A stretch of 63,989 bases of DNA, the filler included, from Licmophora abbreviata (lineage: Eukaryota), in the NCBI GenBank assembly GCA_900291995.1. It is 9 parts of 9 records of this genome, joined end to end, with 100 filler letters (N's around TTAATTAATTAA, not from the genome) between each part and the next. Parts side by side here need not be neighbours in the genome. Positions count along the whole stretch, not along the records: positions 3,410 to 15,877 come from OLMU01004657.1; 8 more parts are not named here. The stretch is one strand, 5' to 3'. Made by a program: the position numbers and the translations under genes. Numbering within the stretch: the stretch's first letter is position 1; every line of letters begins with the position of its first letter. The notes under the pieces were generated by a model. The model had not been told where the DNA came from. It ran no database searches and saw only the letters and a program-made list of their open reading frames with translations. Below are positions 258-54,400 of this stretch, one piece after another.

Positions 258-1247
258 TCAACCATTAGCAGCATCGCTATTCGAATTCAATACGACGGCA
301 AATCGATTTCGAAGTTTCTTCCCTCCCTTTTTGAATATAGTTCGTTTTGTCCACTTCGGATCGGTCGTGCGAGATTCGTCCTCGGTTTCTGGTCTCCTTA
401 GTACATAGAAAGCCACTTTAGGCGATTCCTTCGATTCTTCTACATCGAAACCGATGCCACCTCGAGAAGACAACAGTTGTCGAAAGTGACCCGGCGTCGT
501 GTACGGGGACTGATTTAGGCAGAGTCGGGGAAGCGTAAGGAAGCAGAGCCCGCCCGGTCTCAATTGTTGATATATGCGAGTCAGCATAAGCCCACGATCC
601 TCAGCTATCGTGACACAGTTGATCACCATGGAGCAGACGATAGCATCGTATTTGCTACAAGGGTCAATCGGAAGCGTAAGAAAGTCAGCCTCCTCGATTC
701 CTAGATGCGTGGAATGAAGGTCTATTGCTCGAACGTCCATTCGGTACTTTGGCACCTGCAGTAAAGATGAACCATGCGCACTGGAGCCATCAGACTTCTC
801 ATTGGGTTGCACATGGATGCGTCTCGTTTCTTTTGCTGCATCCAGCAGCTCGGTGTTGATAGCTCCCACTTCAAGCAATCTCATTTTCCGTCGATCGGAA
901 GCTCGTCGTTGCTGATTCTTCCCTGAAGCGGCAGTGCTTTCCTTTTCTTGCGGTATTCCATAAAGCCATCCACATCGTGCCAGATACCCAAGCGCCCATT
1001 TGCTCGTCGAGTGAAACTTTGTGCTCAGCTGACTGGCGCGCTGGTACTCTTGCCGTCCTCCTATGGCATGAATCTGTTGATTCAGCTCTTCGACTCGGTC
1101 CGTGTCGTCGTTTCTAATCGCTTCGTCACGCTCGCGCGTGTACTTGTGAAATAGTGTCGTCACAACCCTTGCTTTCTTTCGTGACTTCATGGAAGGAGGT
1201 GGAGCCAGCGGAATGGCCTTTCGCTTGGATCGACTCTTTTTCGTCAT
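258..1247 (-). CDS. BMT2: 25S rRNA adenine-N1 methyltransferase, Bmt2 family
   Basis: Motifs GGRQEYQRASQ, STSKW, LLEVGA (SAM motif I), IDL..IEEADFL, IVCSMVINCV..RG.ML, and LPRLCL. Confidence 0.85.
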   Translation of the reverse strand: MTKKSRSKRKAIPLAPPPSMKSRKKARVVTTLFHKYTRERDEAIRNDDTDRVEELNQQIHAIGGRQEYQRASQLSTKFHSTSKWALGYLARCGWLYGIPQEKESTAASGKNQQRRASDRRKMRLLEVGAINTELLDAAKETRRIHVQPNEKSDGSSAHGSSLLQVPKYRMDVRAIDLHSTHLGIEEADFLTLPIDPCSKYDAIVCSMVINCVTIAEDRGLMLTRIYQQLRPGGLCFLTLPRLCLNQSPYTTPGHFRQLLSSRGGIGFDVEESKESPKVAFYVLRRPETEDESRTTDPKWTKRTIFKKGGKKLRNRFAVVLNSNSDAANG

Positions 1248-1479
1248 GGTCGTGTTGTGATGGAATGTGGCTCGATGTCTCGACGTAGATTCTACGGGAC
1301 GACGAGTAGACCTTCATACCAGGGCATGAGCTACGGATGACGGCCAGATTTCGAGAGTCGAGTCGAGTCTCGCGAGCCCGGCGTCTTTGGACCATGGAGT
1401 TTGGTGTGTGTTGTTGTGTTGTCGATGACCTTGATGATTGCTTCAACGACGTCTGTACTGTTCGAATAGCCTGCTCGCT

Positions 1480-2424
1480 ATGAACGCGTCGTCGGAGTCC
1501 TCCATGGACAGGGTGGAAGATCTCTGCCATGCATTTTCCAAGACGCTTTCCTCTCTCGCGTCTGACGCCTCAGCATTGCGAGAGCTCTCCCACTTGAAGG
1601 TGGCTTGTGGCCCTGCGGACGACTGCGGAACGGACCCGACTGAGAATGCGAATCCCAATCAAGTTGCATCCACTCTTTATGATGTGGACGGTGCTGTGAC
1701 GGCGTTGGAAAGAAAAGTCCGCACGCTCACGGAAATTGTCGCCGAAGAGGGACGCTCTCTGGATGACCTGGAGAAAATGCATGCGGCGGCTCAAGCGCAA
1801 GGCAAGGTGTTGGACAGTATGCTGGAATCATGTCAAGAGCTCAGACAAGAAAGAGAAGTGCGCGATGTGAATGCACCTTTCGAGAGGCGAACATTGGTAA
1901 ATGAGCTGCACGCCGACAGAGTCTCGGAACGCCGCGCTCTGCCGTCTCCAAGCATATCTCGGGAAACGCCTGTAGTTTCGACCGAGTCCTTCGCCGTGTC
2001 GACACCCGTCTCAAGCAAGACTCCGGCAAAACGTCGTGATTCGATAGATCCTCGGCGCCCTTTGACGGGCACCGATCACAGATTGCACCACTTTCGGCCT
2101 GTCGACGAGGTGGAGTTGTCAGCCGTGTCCCGCACCATTCGTGGTCGAATCACGTTGGCAGTCGTCAATGACGCGCTCTTAGACATTGAACGAGTGTGTC
2201 TCAAACAGAAAGACATATCCGTGTTGTCACGAGGGTTGCCATCTTCAAGGGAAGGCATCGAGTCATGGGCTGCAACCGAGCAGGACTTGCGGCAATCATG
2301 CGCCTTCTTTCGCAGCGGCGAGAGCACGGCTCGTGCCATTCTACTTCTACTCCGCACCCTCAAGCGGCTCAAACAGATTCCTGGAAGACATTCGGAAGTG
2401 AACTATGTCCTATCTGGGAAATAA
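1480..2424 (+). CDS. SKA1: Spindle and kinetochore-associated protein 1-like
   Basis: N-terminal coiled coil plus a C-terminal domain (VDEVELSAVSRTIRGRITLAVVNDAL...ARAILLLLRTLKRLKQIPG...NYVL) matching the SKA1 microtubule-binding domain. First ATG is at 1480. Confidence 0.75.
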   Translation: MNASSESSMDRVEDLCHAFSKTLSSLASDASALRELSHLKVACGPADDCGTDPTENANPNQVASTLYDVDGAVTALERKVRTLTEIVAEEGRSLDDLEKMHAAAQAQGKVLDSMLESCQELRQEREVRDVNAPFERRTLVNELHADRVSERRALPSPSISRETPVVSTESFAVSTPVSSKTPAKRRDSIDPRRPLTGTDHRLHHFRPVDEVELSAVSRTIRGRITLAVVNDALLDIERVCLKQKDISVLSRGLPSSREGIESWAATEQDLRQSCAFFRSGESTARAILLLLRTLKRLKQIPGRHSEVNYVLSGK

Positions 2425-3309: not shown

Positions 3310-3409
3310 NNNNNNNNNNNNNNNNNNNNNNNNNNNNNNNNNNNNNNNNNNNNTTAATTAATTAANNNNNNNNNNNNNNNNNNNNNNNNNNNNNNNNNNN
3401 NNNNNNNNN
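3310..3409. other. Artificial scaffold gap linker (first of 8; others at 15878-15977, 20918-21017, 24082-24181, 48107-48206, 51427-51526, 59770-59869, 62884-62983)
   Basis: Each is 100 bp of N with a central TTAATTAATTAA, which gives stop codons in all six frames. Confidence 0.98.
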
Positions 3410-4693
3410 AAATTCTGTCATCGGCGACCTCATGTCGTCACTCGGAAGGTTCAAGAACCTGAACTTGATCAAGAGGTAAGAATACAATACCCCAGTGCTC
3501 TCGAGCTTGAATATATACACCATCGTCAATCCCTCATTGCCGTATGTCTGAGCGCTTTCAGTTGATCATGAGGCAGGCTCTGCCGTTCCTTGACGACCTA
3601 GGTATCAGTTTCATGCTGTCACTCCTTTCGTCTGATCCTAACGAACGCATCTCTGCTGCTGAGGCGCTCAACCATCCCTTCTTGAACATTGAAACGACCA
3701 ACGCTGAAATAGCGCCATTGTCACCGAGTCGCCCTTCGTCGCCCACATGCCCCCGCACTGCACAACTCCGACATCTACTGGCCTTGGAAAAGATCGTACT
3801 GCCTGTGAATCTGGATCAAAGACGTATACAGATGGACCACTGGGCGAGACTTTACGACTGGATCGTAGAAATAGTGGAGGTATTTGATTTGCACCAGCGG
3901 TGCGCTTTCCGGGCGATGTATTTCTTTGATGCGTTCTTGTCCAGCACCAGAGTAAGTTCCCATCTGCTCAATTGCTGTCATTCTTAGTCACCTATCATAT
4001 CTGACTCGCTTGGCTGGTGTCATAAATCTTTCGCTACAGAGTCCCATCAAGCAAAAAAGATACCAACTCATTGCTGGAACTTGTCTCCGACTTGCCTCTC
4101 TCTTGGAAGAAATCCAGCTCACCGAAGAATCTCTCGTGAAATGTGCTGACTACACGTTTGATGAGACCGATGTGCAAAATGTCGAACCTGTGATCCTGGG
4201 AAAGCTTACTTCGCGGATGCTGGCCCAACCTACGGTCTTCGATTTCGTTCTCAGTTACTTGTGCATGATCGAAGCGAGACTTGAGTACCAATGGATGACT
4301 CTGTACGTGTCCGAGCTTGCGATGCAAAGTCAGATGCTTCGATTCCACTCTCCATCTCTTATTGCAGCAAGCGTTATGGCACTGGCTCGAGTTGCTTTGA
4401 GACAGCATTCTGTGGACGACGACGACGACTCTCCCACCCGCCCGGACGATGTGTGGCCAGAGTGCCTGGAGGCGGCGACCAGATACACTTGGGGCGATGT
4501 GGGACCGTGCGTTGTGAGACTTTCCGATGAAATTGAAACTGTAGGGTCGACTATGCCGGATCTTCGAATGGTGATACGCAAGTTCCGACGACGAATCAGG
4601 TGCAATGTGTCTCGCATTCGAATCCCACGGATTACCCCGGTCATGATGGTGCGAATGCAATCGTTAACGTCAAGACCTAAACTTATCACGTAG
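3410..4693 (+). CDS. Protein kinase (CDK-like) C-terminal subdomains fused to a cyclin. 5' end lies in or before the gap. Exons <3410-3475, 3562-3951, 4040-4693.
   Basis: LDDLGISFMLSLLSSDPNERISAAEALNHPFL (kinase subdomain XI) is in the same exon as the cyclin box start LYDWIVEIVEVFDL..AFRAMYFFDAFLS. After a phase-0 GT-AG intron (3952-4039) come YQLIAGTCLRLAS..EE, PTVFDF and PSLIAAS (cyclin N and C folds). Confidence 0.8.
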
Positions 4694-4706: not shown

Positions 4707-5732
4707 TCATTGATCAAACACCCTCGTTGACTGGCAAAGAGTTACACCAGCGCTTTGCATGTCAATCTGGAACGTCTCGCCATCCTTCTCGAAACCAGGA
4801 ACTGCGGACCCGCAGTCGGTCAACAATGATATCCTATCCGCCTCGGCTTTCGGCCACCTTTCTACAATGTCTCTGAGCGTGTAGTTAACACAATGGCTCC
4901 TGAAGGCGAGAGAATGAGTTGAAGACCTCGACATGAGCGACACGTATACACGAATCGAGCTACGAGTGAAAACGAACAAGCAATCGAAAACTTACATTGC
5001 CTGACCGCAAACGAGTAGACGATCACAAAAGAGCAAGTCGTCCATGAACTCCTGGTTAAAGTCCGTCGATGAACAAAGCGGTACCTCCGCCTGAAGTGCT
5101 GAGTACGCCTCCGTAAGGAGACTCTGGCCCTTGAAGATCCACTCGATACTGCCTCCTGTCTTTGCAGCCCAGTCGTCCATGGCTTCGCGGACTTCATCGA
5201 CGACGCAGTGGCCGAGGTGCCCAATCAAACAGTGCTCTGGCCATATACAAAGCTTGAATCGCCCACGTTGCTCCAACTGGCGCGTATACTCCATACAGTA
5301 CATTTTGAGATCAAACTCATTGTCCTCATTGACCACGCGATCGAGGCCAGTAAAGACATCTGGATCCAACAAGTCTTCATTGAACGGGAGTTTCAAATCA
5401 GTTCGTGGAAGCCACTTTCCCGTCTTTATGTCTTCCGTCGTAATGATAGTAAATGGTTCTGGATGTCTTTGTTCTGCACCTCCTGAATACCAGAAACAAG
5501 GATGAGCAATGTCTAGCTTGTGATGAGAATCCAGTGTCGCAACAATGCGATCAATTCTGTGTCCTTGAGTTCGGATCAGCTCTGCAATTCGCGCGGCGTC
5601 TTGATCAGCCGACGGAATCGCCAAACTCCCACCGGGATGAAAGTCTCTCTGGACGTCCACCAGCAGCAACGTCGTCCCGCGCCCTGAACTTTCTTGCGAC
5701 GGCGACATGGGGATGCTTGCGCTGTTTACCAT
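4707..5732 (-). CDS. Nicotinamidase/isochorismatase-family cysteine hydrolase, intron 4900-4995
   Basis: Motifs LLLVDVQRDFHPGGSLAI, ATLDSH, WPEHC, KG, and GQAM|SHCV (catalytic Cys), which is restored by splicing. Confidence 0.85.
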
Positions 5733-5865
5733 GGAGGACTTTGTCAGAGAATTGTAATCTTTTTGGGAGTTTTGCGGGAATATCAGGATACCACTCGTGC
5801 GTGGATTTTGTACTGACCTCTACGTGCCGCTCCGAATTCTGAATTGACGACGCCGCACTTTTCTA

Positions 5866-7167
5866 ATGAGGCGACACGCGACCACACCGCGATCACATTT
5901 TGCGTTTGACTATCGCCGTCAACACAACTTACGCGCTTCACATCGCTGGCTCTGCATCTTGTTACTATTAGCATTGATACCACCACAGATAGAAAGCCTC
6001 GCAATGCCTGGTCGAAGAAAAAAGGGAGATTCGTCCGAGGAAGAAAGTGAATGGGAGCACGACGACAGCGCCGCCGAATCGGACGACGATGTCTCTGTTG
6101 TGGATTCGGAGGACAGCAACGACGAGGCGTTCGAGCAAGAAGAGGAAGAAGAAGACTATAAGAAACAGCGTCCCCCAAAACCCCGGAAAAAGCAGTCGGC
6201 AAAGAAATCAAAGCGCAAGCCCCTCGTGCAGCAGAGTAGTGACGAGGAGGCTGACTTTGAGCCGACACATACACGGCTGACCGCACGAGGAGGGTACAGT
6301 CATACTCGCAAGAGCAAGTCTCGCATTTCACGTGCAAATCAAGGAAATACACCATGGAACAAAGGTAAGAATAGAAGTATGGCGGTCCGCGCCAAGATTT
6401 CTGCCGGAGTACGTGCCAGGAACAGATCGATTTTGCTCAAGAAACTTGGGAAGCTGGGCATGTCAGAAGAAGAATACAACGAGAAACGAAAACAGATTAG
6501 GTTGGTAAGGGAGCGACTACGAATAACGAAGCTGCAAAAAACAAAAAGAAATCCTGGTCCGAAACCTGTCGCTGTATCGGACGATGCGACGGCGGAAGCC
6601 AAGGGCCAAGGGGACTCAGAGAACTCGCCGAACGACGTGGCTTCGACTCAGCAGGCTAGCGACGACGATTCTATTGAAGAACCATTTGTGGACTCAAGAG
6701 CGCCTGCGCTGCCATCTCAGTCCCCAACGACGGAGATTCCATCGATTTTTGCCCCAGAAATCGAATGGACACGTCATGAGTATGATAACAACAAAGACGG
6801 CGCGTACAAGAAGGCTTGCCCAACTGGCGGCCCCGGCGGCCTCATTTGCTGCCAGGTGTGCATGAAATCGTATTCACAGTACTTGTGTCAGGCTACACGT
6901 GATATGGAAAAGTGCCGCACAGAGAATGCGCGAAAAGAGGTGACAGAACTTCTTGCATTCGCCAGAGAGTCTCGGGTAACGCTACAGAAGCATGTCAGAC
7001 TCGCAAGGCGGCAGCCTCCGCCGCCCATTGATACCCAGGGTGGTGCGACCCGTGTTGTCTCTTCCAAGAAATCTTCAAGGAAAGCTGGGAGTGCTGCCGC
7101 TCCGCTCTCATGGAACGCGACCAGCAGTATTGATATTGGTGCTCTGGGACCCTCTATGCGCATTTAG
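5866..7167 (+). CDS. Signal-peptide protein with acidic tract, NUMOD3-type DNA-binding motifs and a Cys cluster
   Basis: Hydrophobic leader WLCILLLLALIP; motifs HTRKSKSRISRANQG and PWNKGKNRSMAVRAKISAG; Cys cluster CPTGGPGGLICCQVC. Confidence 0.65.
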   Translation: MRRHATTPRSHFAFDYRRQHNLRASHRWLCILLLLALIPPQIESLAMPGRRKKGDSSEEESEWEHDDSAAESDDDVSVVDSEDSNDEAFEQEEEEEDYKKQRPPKPRKKQSAKKSKRKPLVQQSSDEEADFEPTHTRLTARGGYSHTRKSKSRISRANQGNTPWNKGKNRSMAVRAKISAGVRARNRSILLKKLGKLGMSEEEYNEKRKQIRLVRERLRITKLQKTKRNPGPKPVAVSDDATAEAKGQGDSENSPNDVASTQQASDDDSIEEPFVDSRAPALPSQSPTTEIPSIFAPEIEWTRHEYDNNKDGAYKKACPTGGPGGLICCQVCMKSYSQYLCQATRDMEKCRTENARKEVTELLAFARESRVTLQKHVRLARRQPPPPIDTQGGATRVVSSKKSSRKAGSAAAPLSWNATSSIDIGALGPSMRI

Positions 7168-51407: not shown

Positions 51408-54400
51408 ATGACTATCCCACGAATATNNNNNNNNNNNNNNNNNNNNNNNNNNNNNNNNNNNNNNNNNNNNTTAATTAATTAANNNNNNNNNNNNNNNNNN
51501 NNNNNNNNNNNNNNNNNNNNNNNNNNTACACGTCTTGGTTCTTACGTGGGCGTTTGTAGCAGTTTTCCCTCACAGATTCCCAGTTGGAAGCATCACCCGC
51601 CATGTTTTGTCTCCGTTGCGTCCAGGACGGCATCCGTCAGAGGCGTTTGCCCTCGCTGCGCATGAGGCTCATCGTGTGACATTAAACTTGCGTGGGGGAG
51701 AGAAACAGACTTCCAGTGATGAGGAAAGATACAGTAGACAGTTGTACACCTTGGGTGCCCGAGCACATCGACTGGTTCGCTCGTCCACTGTATATTTAGA
51801 CGGCCCCACCGAATCGGGGCTCATGTACGAGTGCGCCAAGAATCTTGCACTGTCAGGCGTGGGACGCATCGTGCTGGTGACATCTGGAAGAGAAGAATCC
51901 GATAATGAAAATCCACCCGAGTTGCTTTACTTCAACCCACACCTGGACGATCTGGGCATGGCGTACGGCCGGGCGGCACGTGCAGAACTTGATCGCGATG
52001 GCAGTAGCGAAGAAGGATCCGTTGTACTGTTGGAATTTATCAAAAGACTGAATCCGTCGGTTCAGGTGTCGAGCTTGCAAAGATCTGAGCTACAATCTGA
52101 ATCGATCGAAGGCAGGGGCATACTGGTTGCAGTGGACAGACCGCAATCAATACAGGTAGCTCTGAATGAGATGGCCCGCAATGGAGAACTCGCATTCGTC
52201 GCTGTTGAGACCGCTGGAGTGTATGGGCGCATCTTTTGTGATTTCGGCACTTCGTTCGAAGTGTTCGACGCGGATGGGGAGACACCGCTGGTTGTGCCGC
52301 TCGATCATCTTGAGAACATGGAGGCTTCCGAAGAAACTCTGGTGGTTCATGTATTGGAAGGCGAAAAGCACGATGTGTCGAAGGGCGATTTAATTCGCTT
52401 TCAACTGAGCTCAGGGGACCTATCGTCGGTGAGCTGCACGGTTCAGCATGTGGACAATCCACGTCGCTTCACTGTCAGGTGCGATTCCGTCGTGGCCAAA
52501 GACTTCGCGCAGACCATCAATGGCGAGGGTACATCCTTCAGTCGAATAAAAGTCCCTCAACGAGTCAGTTTCATGTCGATGCGAGATGCCTTAGGGGAAA
52601 TACATGACAATGAATCTTTATTCACGCCCTGTGATCTGGACAAGAGCTTCGACCCTATCCGTCGAAGCGCTCTCATGTCGGCCTTTGCGAGTATCGAATC
52701 ATTCGTTCTAGAACACTCGCGTCTGCCCGGCAAACAGGATACGAAAGCCTTTCGGAAGCTCGCTCGTTCTCGTGTTGAGAGTTCAATGGCAGACATGAAG
52801 AGCTTTAAGTCAATTGTCAGGTCAGTTTGTAAGACATGTGCGGCCAAGTTGGCTCCGATCCAAGCTATTCTTGGAGCAATCAGCTCGCAGGAGGTCCTCA
52901 AGGCAGCGAGTGGTCTGTACAACCCCATCCAGCAATTCATATTGTACGATTGCGATGAACTGTTGTCACCACGCGACAAGAGTAGTCCCGAGAGGGGTCA
53001 TGATGCTGTGAAAGTGAATAGTGGACAGAGCTATATTCTTGGCAAGAGTTTCTGCGACTCGCTGGCTGAGAAGCGATTGTTCGTTGTTGGCGCTGGGGCG
53101 ATCGGGTGCGAGCTGCTCAAGAATCTTGCGGCAATGGGAGTGGCTAGAGGGAAAGGGAGGGTCATATTGACTGATATGGATACGATCGAGCAGTCCAACC
53201 TCAGTCGACAGCTCTTGTTCCGTGATGCCGATATTGGCAAGTTTAAGAGCACTGCAGCAAAAGAAGCCGTCCTTCGTTTTGATCCCTCGATTCAAATAGA
53301 TGCTCACACTAGCAAAGTCGGAGATGGTGAGCATGGGCCGTTTCGTGGGAAATTCTGGTCGGAGAAGGTGGACACAGTTCTTAATGCTCTTGACAATATT
53401 GAAGCAAGATTGTTCATTGACGGGCAATGCGTAGCGAACCGAAAAGCCCTCGTCGACTCGGGGACGCTCGGACCGAAAGGAAATGTGCAAGTTGTCGTTC
53501 CATTTCAAAGCGAGTCTTATGGCTCGAGTGCCGATCCGCCCGATCCTGCGATTCCATTGTGTACGCTGAAAAACTTTCCGTACGCAATATCACATACGAT
53601 ACAATGGGGCCGAGACCAATTCGACGGATACTTTCAGCGACGGCCTAAACAGGCAAATGATTTCATAGTCGAGTTCTTATCCGAGGGTAGTGAATCTTTC
53701 TTTTCCAGACTTGAACAAGATCTCGGTGACGCGGAAGCTCGCAACGCGGCATCTGAACTTGTAGAGGACTGGGCTCTACAATCTTTGGCGAGGAGTGGCG
53801 CTCCTCATGAACTGCGCGAGGCCTCGTTACAGTGGGCAGTGTCGTCCGCGCGTCATTTGTTCCGAGAATCTATTCTCGATCTTCTTGATCAACATCCTAT
53901 TGACAGTCGCGACGAAGATGGTGAACTGTTTTGGTCTGGATCTCGTAGGGTTCCCACAGCCTTGGCGTTGGTGGAATCTGCCGCAAGCGATACCCAGCAG
54001 GCTACGGTTAACGAAAACCTAATCGATTTTGTTCGCACCGCAGCGCGTCTACGGATCGAAATGCATCAAGCCGCAAGTGATGTAGCCATTGACACAGGAT
54101 TCACAAAGGCCGACGCGACAGAAGCGCTTCGCGACAATTGGGAATCGATTAAGGATGAGCAGAGCTCAGAGACTGGCTGCATTTTTGACGGCTTGTCTGC
54201 GCCCAGCCTCAAGGAAGCATCAATATACCCACTTAAAACGGCCGAGTTCGAGAAAGATGAGGAAACTAATGGACATGTTGCCTTTGTGACCGCTGCGAGC
54301 AATCTCCGGGCGCTTTCCTATGGTATCGCTCCAGTCGACTCCATGGAGACCCGACGAGTAGCAGGTCGGATAGTCCCTGCGATGATTAGCACAACAGCGT

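What the first reader, a model, noticed from the sequence alone, without database searches (positions are those of the whole stretch)
3410..4693. CDK-like kinase C-lobe fused in frame to a cyclin
Seen in sequence: one exon (3562-3951) encodes kinase subdomain XI (PFLDDLGISFMLSLLSSDPNERISAAEALNHPFL), an SP/TP-rich linker (LSPSRPSSPT) and the start of a cyclin box with no stop or intron between them. A phase-0 intron leads into the rest of the cyclin fold. Established knowledge: CDKs and cyclins are normally separate genes, and diatoms have expanded cyclin families. Inference: this is a single-chain kinase-cyclin, either self-activating or a cyclin carrying a kinase remnant. The linker has proline-directed phosphosites that could regulate it.
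Basis: partly seen in the sequence, partly recalled or inferred. Interest (0 to 1): 0.8.

Follow-up and report, generated by a model that had tools for sequence, protein, structure and literature searches.

The report
Truncated diatom pseudokinase-cyclin fusion gene
This is the rear part of a diatom gene from an already described protist family that joins a CDK-like but probably inactive kinase to a cyclin in one protein; the front of the gene is lost at an assembly break.

Summary
Exon 3562-3951 encodes, in one open frame, the last about 40 residues of a CDK-type kinase, an unconserved Ser/Pro-rich linker and the start of a cyclin box. An 88-nt phase-0 GT..AG intron (3952-4039) leads into the rest of Cyclin_N and Cyclin_C, with the stop at 4691-4693.

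The gene is cut at 3410 by an artificial contig linker, so the kinase core is not in the window.

Relatives decide what it is. 25 of 58 database hits align across the junction, and 22 of 30 scanned hits have Pkinase followed by Cyclin_N, many with an N-terminal F-box. Transcript-derived proteins of the diatom Ditylum have the same layout.

This is the "CDK with integral cyclin domains" family published for Phytophthora in 2010. That paper did not find it in two model diatoms.

None of 31 aligned members has the catalytic aspartate, and the window's nearest relatives are more degenerate still. "Self-activating kinase" is therefore unlikely. A non-catalytic CDK-cyclin module on a cyclin-F-like ubiquitin-ligase adaptor is my inferred mechanism.

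The scan has seen related layouts before on other DNA (a red alga, giant viruses). Verdict: new member of a known kind, modest interest.

The parts
3310..3409 (.). Artificial contig linker (44 N + TTAATTAATTAA + 44 N). It marks the 5' break of the gene.
   Evidence: 8 such linkers in the window; 0 expected by chance; N runs.
3410..3475 (+). Possible fragment of an upstream coding exon. Frame and coding status are unresolved.
   Evidence: The frame starting at 3410 is open and joins exon A in phase 0 through the donor at 3476 (GTAAGA) and the acceptor at 3561. A second frame would need the acceptor at 3572/3573. Neither the family HMM nor codon usage (scores 0.02 and 0.38 over 22 codons) decides between them. 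The third frame has stops.
3476..3561 (+). Putative intron 1 (86 nt, GT..AG). Alternatively 5' UTR, if the gene starts at the in-frame ATG at 3544 or 3568.
   Evidence: It is similar in size to intron 2. There is no transcript evidence.
3562..3951 (+). Exon A. Kinase subdomain XI (about 3574-3687), unconserved Ser/Pro-rich linker (about 3688-3813) and the start of Cyclin_N (about 3814-3951), all in one frame.
3952..4039 (+). Intron 2, 88 nt, phase 0, GTAAGT..ACAG.
   Evidence: In one search the relatives' open frames lose similarity to one another just after the residues aligned with the end of exon A, which fits an intron at the same site.
4040..4690 (+). Exon B. The rest of Cyclin_N (about 4046-4219), Cyclin_C (about 4229-4618) and a family-conserved C-terminal tail.
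   Evidence: family HMM positions up to 711 of 724; cyclin A2, E 4.6e-7.
4691..4693 (+). Stop codon TAG.

Best explanation
Window 3562-4693 (perhaps from 3410) is the 3' part of a diatom gene of the F-box / CDK-like pseudokinase / cyclin fusion family. Judelson and Ah-Fong (2010) described these as 'CDKs with integral cyclin domains', and UniRef names the oomycete members 'Cyclin-F'.

Shown:
- The kinase tail, linker and a complete two-fold cyclin are encoded in one reading frame across one intron.
- The spliced product matches a family profile collinearly.
- The contig is of diatom origin.
- The 5' end is lost at an assembly break.

Inferred from relatives:
- A whole but catalytically dead CDK1/2-type kinase domain and an F-box lie upstream.
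- The dead kinase packs on its own cyclin through its alpha-C helix, as CDK2 does on cyclin A.
- The protein then works not as a self-activating kinase but as a cyclin-F-like SCF ubiquitin-ligase substrate receptor or scaffold that offers a CDK-cyclin-shaped docking surface.

Odds: family membership and truncation by assembly about 0.85-0.9. A full-length kinase domain upstream about 0.7. The non-catalytic SCF-adaptor mechanism about 0.35.
For: Membership:
- A profile of 32 family proteins matches the spliced product at 256 bits, E 1e-79, over profile positions 375-711 of 724.
- 25 of 58 phmmer hits span the junction.
- 22 of 30 scanned hits have Pkinase then Cyclin_N, and 11 of 30 have an F-box-like match at E<=1e-3, 5 of them above Pfam's cut-off.
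- Ditylum brightwellii transcript proteins have the same order.
- 17 of 19 metagenome loci have kinase then cyclin on one strand.
- The named family members are oomycetes, other stramenopiles and dinoflagellates.

Diatom origin: the LepA/GUF1 gene on the same contig (3410-15877) has diatoms as its best named hits, at 65-69% identity.

CDK type: the family profile hits CDK3, CDK2 and CDK1 over their full length at E 1e-104 to 1e-111. The window's tail matches CDK2 250-287.

Dead kinase:
- 0 of 31 informative rows have the catalytic Asp (30 Asn, 1 Tyr), and H and N are invariant in 29 of 29 rows. The paper reports the same Asp-to-Asn change.
- The nearest relatives, P0004 and P0011, also lack the DFG motif.
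- A sister group, P0009 and similar proteins, has lost the whole C-lobe.

Intramolecular packing: for the Ditylum protein split into kinase (250-600) and cyclin (620-879), the score was 0.75 against a best control of 0.00.
- That mark was reached by 51 of 78 solved complexes and 2 of 108 mismatched pairs.
- The runs agree in at least 75% of their contacts, and the partner's pLDDT is at least 81.
- The interface is the alpha-C helix against cyclin helices.
- Solved CDK-cyclin complexes exist, so this pass may be memory. It shows likeness, not that this copy binds.

Full-length kinase upstream: P0004 (48% identity) and P0011 carry the kinase region in the same open frame. A 309-nt contig of run X1 runs 223 nt beyond 3410.
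Against: - The window holds no kinase core and no F-box, so the catalytic state and the F-box of this copy are unseen.
- The upstream mini-exon gains no score from the family profile or from codon usage. In-frame ATGs at 3544 and 3568 would allow a short gene.
- There is no transcript evidence for this locus.
- The window's cyclin differs from the family at several predicted interface positions. The family Lys (29 of 32 rows) is Leu, His (31 of 32) is Arg, and Phe/Trp (28 of 32) is Ser. Packing on the kinase may be weakened in this copy.
- The core family keeps the ATP-binding Lys, the alpha-C Glu and the DFG Asp, so residual activity is not excluded.
- The SCF-adaptor role rests on domain content and on recalled knowledge of human cyclin F. 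Nothing functional is published for the family in the library searched.
Confidence: 0.75

Rival explanations
1. An active, self-activating single-chain CDK-cyclin. The tethered cyclin holds the kinase permanently in the active conformation.
For: - Core family members keep the ATP-binding Lys, the alpha-C Glu, the DFG Asp and a CDK-like activation segment.
- A canonical CDK-cyclin interface is predicted: score 0.75 against best control 0.00, a mark reached by 51 of 78 solved complexes and 2 of 108 mismatched pairs.
- Some kinases with Asn at the catalytic-base position are said to keep weak activity (recalled, not checked here).
Against: - The catalytic Asp is absent in 31 of 31 informative rows. 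The catalytic-loop Asn is His in the core family.
- The window's nearest relatives lack further motifs, and a sister group has no C-lobe at all.
- The window's cyclin has lost the family-conserved interface Lys.
- The authors of PMC3019232 also suggest inactivity.
Confidence: 0.08
2. A stand-alone cyclin that keeps only a roughly 45-residue kinase remnant at its N-terminus. Translation would start at the in-frame ATG at 3544 or 3568, and nothing coding lies upstream.
For: - In-frame ATGs exist at 3544 and 3568.
- The stretch 3410-3475 gains no profile or codon-usage support.
- Relatives show that the kinase part can be partly deleted in this lineage.
Against: - The tail matches the family consensus over its whole length, without gaps, in the profile alignment. 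That is not expected of a functionless remnant.
- In the relatives with deletions, the C-lobe is what is lost and the N-lobe is what is kept, the opposite of this model.
- The two closest relatives with upstream sequence have a kinase region in the same frame.
- A canonical donor at 3476 is in phase with the acceptor at 3561.
- The contig simply ends 152 nt upstream of exon A.
Confidence: 0.12
3. An artefact: a chimeric contig or a misread pair of adjacent genes.
For: The record is a low-coverage patchwork of contigs joined by linkers (depth 2-3).
Against: - The tail and the cyclin start share one exon without a stop.
- The same junction is found in 25 of 58 independent hits and in transcript-derived proteins.
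- A contig of another study's run (X3) covers 3504-3732 without a difference.
Confidence: 0.02

Closest known systems
Oomycete 'CDKs with integral cyclin domains' (four Phytophthora infestans proteins, including PITG_21617; Judelson and Ah-Fong 2010, PMC3019232, passages read)
   Same: A kinase followed by Cyclin_N and Cyclin_C in one chain, with the Asp-to-Asn change in the catalytic loop. Oomycete members are in the family alignment that matches the window product.
   Different: The window copy sits in a fast-evolving, diatom-type group apart from the conserved oomycete/ochrophyte clade (quick tree). The paper found none in Thalassiosira pseudonana or Phaeodactylum tricornutum. The term F-box occurs 0 times in that paper by the counts.
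Ditylum brightwellii transcript proteins (UniRef A0A7S1VZA2, 'Cyclin-dependent kinase 2 homolog'; longest cluster member P0070, 879 aa)
   Same: A diatom protein with the same order (F-box-like region, HRN pseudokinase, linker, cyclin). It is collinear with both window exons.
   Different: Only 33-36% identity to the window exons. It keeps the family interface Lys that the window copy has replaced.
Unnamed metagenomic relatives P0004, P0011, P0003, P0006 and P0008
   Same: These are the closest sequences (39-48% identity). The kinase tail, linker and cyclin start lie in one open frame, and similarity among them ends just after the residues aligned with the end of exon A.
   Different: Organisms unknown. 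P0004 and P0011 show strongly degenerate catalytic motifs.
Human cyclin F (F-box plus cyclin box; substrate receptor of an SCF ubiquitin ligase; biology recalled, not checked)
   Same: An F-box and a cyclin fold in one chain in the family. UniRef names the oomycete members 'Cyclin-F'. Exon B matches the cyclin F chain 9cb3_A weakly (E 0.0015).
   Different: Cyclin F has no kinase domain. The window's cyclin is closer to cyclin A2 (E 4.6e-7). The F-box of the window copy is unseen.
CDK2-cyclin A2 complex (two separate proteins)
   Same: The family kinase profile is CDK3/2/1-like over the full length. The cyclin is cyclin A-like. The predicted contact uses the alpha-C helix.
   Different: Here the two are one chain, and the catalytic Asp is missing in the family.
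Giant-virus kinase-cyclin fusions
   Same: Kinase and cyclin in one chain.
   Different: According to the earlier, unchecked notes these are viral, shorter and apparently active kinases. They were not compared in detail here.

Membership tests
Kinase-cyclin fusion family (F-box / CDK-like pseudokinase / cyclin) | Cyclin_N and Cyclin_C domains at the C-terminus | tested here: met
   Cyclin_N in two halves on exons A and B (E 2.6e-6 and 1.5e-6, both above the cut-off). Cyclin_C at E 5.6e-11.
Kinase-cyclin fusion family (F-box / CDK-like pseudokinase / cyclin) | Kinase domain directly N-terminal to the cyclin in the same reading frame | tested here: inconclusive
   Only the last roughly 40 residues (subdomain XI) are present and in frame. 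The rest lies beyond the contig break at 3410.
Kinase-cyclin fusion family (F-box / CDK-like pseudokinase / cyclin) | Collinear match to a family profile across tail, linker, cyclin and C-terminal tail | tested here: met
   256 bits, E 1e-79, profile positions 375-711 of 724, in a single domain hit.
Kinase-cyclin fusion family (F-box / CDK-like pseudokinase / cyclin) | Catalytic-loop Asp replaced by Asn (HRN) | not testable with these tools
   The sequence is missing from the window. In relatives 30 of 31 informative rows have Asn and 1 has Tyr.
Kinase-cyclin fusion family (F-box / CDK-like pseudokinase / cyclin) | N-terminal F-box | not testable with these tools
   The sequence is missing from the window. 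Among relatives 11 of 30 have a match at E<=1e-3, 5 of them above the cut-off. Many named members carry PF12937.
Active cyclin-dependent kinase (CDK) | Complete catalytic core with the catalytic Asp | not testable with these tools
   The core is not in the window. It is absent in every informative relative.
Canonical CDK-activating cyclin (A/B/E type) | Conserved Lys of the first cyclin fold that contacts the kinase | tested here: not met
   The window has Leu where 29 of 32 family rows have Lys and where cyclin A2 has Lys in the pairwise alignment.

The most novel reading that the evidence does not exclude
The family is a ubiquitin-ligase adaptor built from a 'frozen' CDK-cyclin. An F-box docks to Skp1-Cul1. 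A catalytically dead CDK1/2-type domain is locked on its own cyclin and acts as a trap for CDK substrates or CDK inhibitors, sending them to degradation.

In diatoms this module is evolving fast. It ranges from full pseudokinase (this window, P0004, P0011) to forms that keep only the cyclin-binding N-lobe (P0009 group). The kinase part would then be kept only as a structural partner of the cyclin. This would be a cell-cycle control device of stramenopiles and alveolates with no counterpart in animals, fungi or plants.
Probability: 0.3. Interest if true: 0.7.

Novelty: new member of a known kind. Interest (0 to 1): 0.35.

Why it matters
Natural kinase-cyclin fusions are rare and functionally unstudied. 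The one paper found in the library (2010) reported none in the two model diatoms. This window, together with the Ditylum transcripts, shows that diatoms do carry the family.

The comparison made here adds three points:
- An N-terminal F-box is common in the family.
- The loss of the catalytic Asp is universal among the members aligned.
- The diatom-type branch is shedding kinase parts.

If the F-box / dead-CDK / cyclin protein is an SCF adaptor, it offers a testable link between CDK-substrate recognition and proteolysis in a major group of marine primary producers. For this window alone the gain is small, because the gene is truncated by the assembly and its catalytic region cannot be judged.

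Tried and rejected
- Own genome: none is held, so the missing 5' part could not be sought there.
- Word-index search of P0001 among longer proteins found nothing. The exhaustive search did find relatives.
- Metagenome scan: the best locus is only 37% identical, so there is no same-species contig to fill the gap.
- Sequencing runs: no RNA holder is listed, so there is no evidence on expression either way.
- Laying 4 DNA runs gave only short contigs at depth 2-3, and no piece spans the whole stretch. The parts without cover mean nothing.
- Upstream mini-exon: the family profile and codon usage both failed to choose a frame or to show coding.
- Tree: the careful search did not finish in 288 s. 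Only the quick tree (SH-aLRT) is reported. My intended restriction to the window's span did not take effect, so whole proteins were aligned. The long branches make the placement within the 8-row group unsure.
- A chimeric contig and a stand-alone cyclin were considered; see the rivals.
- The linker phosphosite idea was not testable. The linker is unconserved among 9 aligned relatives.
- Literature: six full-text searches found only PMC3019232 describing a natural kinase-cyclin fusion. Subscription journals are not covered.
I redid the same display by residue numbers.

Full report
**What is in the sequence.**
The window is a chain of contigs joined by an artificial 100-base linker (44 N, TTAATTAATTAA, 44 N).
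- There are 8 linkers, and one occupies 3310-3409. The finding therefore begins at the first real base of a 12.5-kb contig (3410-15877).
- On the + strand, exon A (3562-3951) is an uninterrupted frame of 130 codons.
- An 88-nt GT..AG intron in phase 0 follows (3952-4039).
- Exon B (4040-4690, 217 codons) ends in TAG at 4691-4693.
- Codon usage trained on 11 long frames of the window is coding-like in the stated frame of both exons (+15.9 and +23.2) and negative in the other frames and in the intron.

**Domain content.**
- In Pfam, exon A matches Cyclin_N profile positions 22-65 and exon B matches positions 68-126. Cyclin_C follows at E 5.6e-11.
- The first 42 residues of exon A match the last 27 positions of Pkinase only weakly (E 0.012, below the cut-off). 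Other evidence makes the match solid:
  - CDK2 residues 250-287 in PDB (E 0.0018).
  - A two-kinase protein without any cyclin (P0032) matching query residues 5-59 at the end of its first kinase domain, with whole-protein E 2.7e-6 against 1.84 billion proteins.
  - 25 of 58 hits that align in one stretch from the kinase tail through the linker into the cyclin.
- Exon B is closest to cyclin A2 (E 4.6e-7), then cyclin D1, with cyclin F at 0.0015.

**Relatives and the family.**
I scanned 30 of the 58 hits with Pfam.
- 22 have Pkinase followed by Cyclin_N, mostly with Cyclin_C as well.
- 11 have an N-terminal F-box-like match at E<=1e-3, and 5 of these are above Pfam's cut-off.
- The rest are short exon-like fragments or have a middle region too degenerate for Pfam.

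Other evidence on the family:
- The only named close cluster is from transcriptomes of the diatom Ditylum brightwellii. Its longest member (P0070, 879 aa) has an F-box-like region, a kinase with HRN in place of HRD, a linker and a cyclin.
- A search with that protein finds the family in many oomycetes (UniRef name 'Cyclin-F'), Hondaea, Tribonema, brown algae and their relatives, and dinoflagellates.
- Of 19 metagenome loci, 17 have kinase then cyclin on one strand. The other 2 (one sequence seen in two samples) have only the F-box and kinase N-lobe part before the cyclin.
- A profile of 32 family proteins that I picked and 25 matches the window's spliced product at 256 bits (E 1e-79) over positions 375-711 of 724. 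That covers everything from subdomain XI to the C-terminus.
- tblastn with 11 family proteins finds nothing else in the window, so the kinase core is not on any of the window's contigs.

**Organism.**
LepA/GUF1 on the same contig has diatoms as its best named hits, including Nitzschia, Pseudo-nitzschia, Cylindrotheca and Mayamaea, at 65-69% identity. Its best unnamed hit is at 81%. The runs that hold parts of the stretch are marine, seawater and sediment metagenomes at depth 2-3.

**It is already known.**
Judelson and Ah-Fong (2010, PMC3019232; I read the abstract and 11 passages) report the following:
- Four P. infestans CDKs have C-terminal Cyclin_N and Cyclin_C, confirmed by RT-PCR.
- All four have the catalytic Asp of subdomain VIb replaced by Asn, and the authors suggest they are inactive.
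- Related genes exist in other oomycetes, Paramecium, Tetrahymena and Theileria.
- None was found in Thalassiosira pseudonana or Phaeodactylum tricornutum.

Six full-text searches found no other paper on a natural fusion. By the term counts, the 2010 paper does not mention an F-box. Earlier notes of this scan (unchecked by me) report related layouts in a red alga and in giant viruses. The ESM Atlas also lists Nucleocytoviricota clusters with Pkinase and Cyclin_N.

**How the family probably works.**
- The family kinase profile matches CDK3, CDK2 and CDK1 over their full length at E 1e-104 to 1e-111.
- In my 32-row alignment, 31 rows cover the catalytic loop. None has Asp at the catalytic-base position (26 HRN, 3 HxN, P0004 with Asn, P0011 with Tyr), and the core clade reads HRNLKPKH. 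His and Asn are invariant in 29 of 29 rows of alignment A2.
- The ATP-binding Lys, the alpha-C Glu, the Asp of DFG (as DFA) and a CDK-like activation segment are kept in the core clade.
- Splitting the Ditylum protein into kinase (250-600) and cyclin (620-879) gave a complex score of 0.75 against a best control of 0.00.
  - The mark was reached by 51 of 78 solved complexes and 2 of 108 mismatched pairs.
  - The runs agree in at least 75% of contacts, and the partner's pLDDT is at least 81.
  - The alpha-C helix (302-322) lies on cyclin residues 698-708, 727-743 and 749-756.
  - Many CDK-cyclin complexes are solved, so this may be memory. It shows likeness, not binding.
- Together with the F-box, I infer a non-catalytic CDK-cyclin module carried by a cyclin-F-like SCF adaptor. 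The role of cyclin F is recalled, not checked. This step is inference (about 0.35).

**Where the window copy sits.**
- On a quick tree it groups with P0004 (SH-aLRT 87) and P0024 (91). These lie inside an 8-row long-branch set that includes Ditylum and is split from the conserved clade at 99. The careful search did not finish, and long branches make the inner order unsure.
- In this set the catalytic motifs decay further. P0011 and P0004 lack HRD and DFG.
- P0009 and five similar proteins keep the F-box and the kinase N-lobe, and jump straight to the cyclin. P0009 aligns to P0070 143-350 and 613-682.
- The window copy keeps a well-conserved subdomain XI, so it belongs with the forms that still have a C-lobe.
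- Its cyclin departs from the family at predicted contact positions: Lys to Leu (family 29 of 32 Lys), His to Arg (31 of 32), Phe/Trp to Ser (28 of 32). It keeps Arg, two Glu, two Leu and Asp at others.

**What stays open.**
- The 66 bases at 3410-3475 are open in two frames. One frame joins 3562 in phase 0 through a GTAAGA donor, and the other would need an acceptor at 3573. Neither the profile nor codon usage supports either.
- In-frame ATGs at 3544 and 3568 allow a short gene encoding a cyclin with a kinase remnant. I rate this at about 0.12. The tail matches the family consensus over its whole length without gaps, the nearest relatives have the kinase in the same frame, and the deletions seen in relatives remove the C-lobe, not the N-lobe.
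- The linker has two Ser-Pro sites, but relatives do not conserve it. Its regulation is conjecture.
- No RNA data exist for the locus.

**Verdict.**
This is a 5'-truncated, divergent diatom member of a published but functionally unstudied family.

Noticed in passing
window 3354, 15922, 20962, 24126, 48151, 51471, 59814, 62928: The window is a chain of at least nine contigs joined by identical 100-base linkers (44 N, a 12-base all-frame stop string, 44 N). Gene order across linkers need not be real, and genes at contig ends are cut. One example is the E1-like ThiF/UBA_E1_SCCH frame that starts right at the linker near 51475.
   Followed up: partly
proteins P0009, P0013, P0025, P0027, P0030, P0037; loci L010 5248-6971 and L011 2332-4055: A group of relatives has an F-box-like region and only the N-lobe of the kinase, followed directly by the cyclin. 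The whole kinase C-lobe is missing (P0009 aligns to P0070 143-350 and 613-682). The part that is kept is the part predicted to touch the cyclin.
   Followed up: partly
ESM Atlas clusters: Two Nucleocytoviricota clusters (64-67 members scale) carry Pkinase with Cyclin_N, and a Chlorophyta cluster carries Pkinase with an F-box. These are look-alikes by features only.
   Followed up: no
window 5848-7167 (+): A long acidic/basic open frame with a NUMOD3 DNA-binding motif (E 5.9e-9). That motif is better known from homing endonucleases, and here it sits in a diatom nuclear contig.
   Followed up: no
window 1438-2424 (+) and 258-1313 (-): On the contig before the linker there is an SKA1-like kinetochore protein frame (E 6.9e-9) and a Bmt2 rRNA methyltransferase frame (E 1.2e-36). 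They are unrelated to the finding, and no kinase lies there.
   Followed up: no
window 4992-5819 (-): The convergent neighbour downstream of the cyclin gene has no Pfam match at E<=1e-5. From memory its sequence looks isochorismatase/nicotinamidase-like. Not tested.
   Followed up: no
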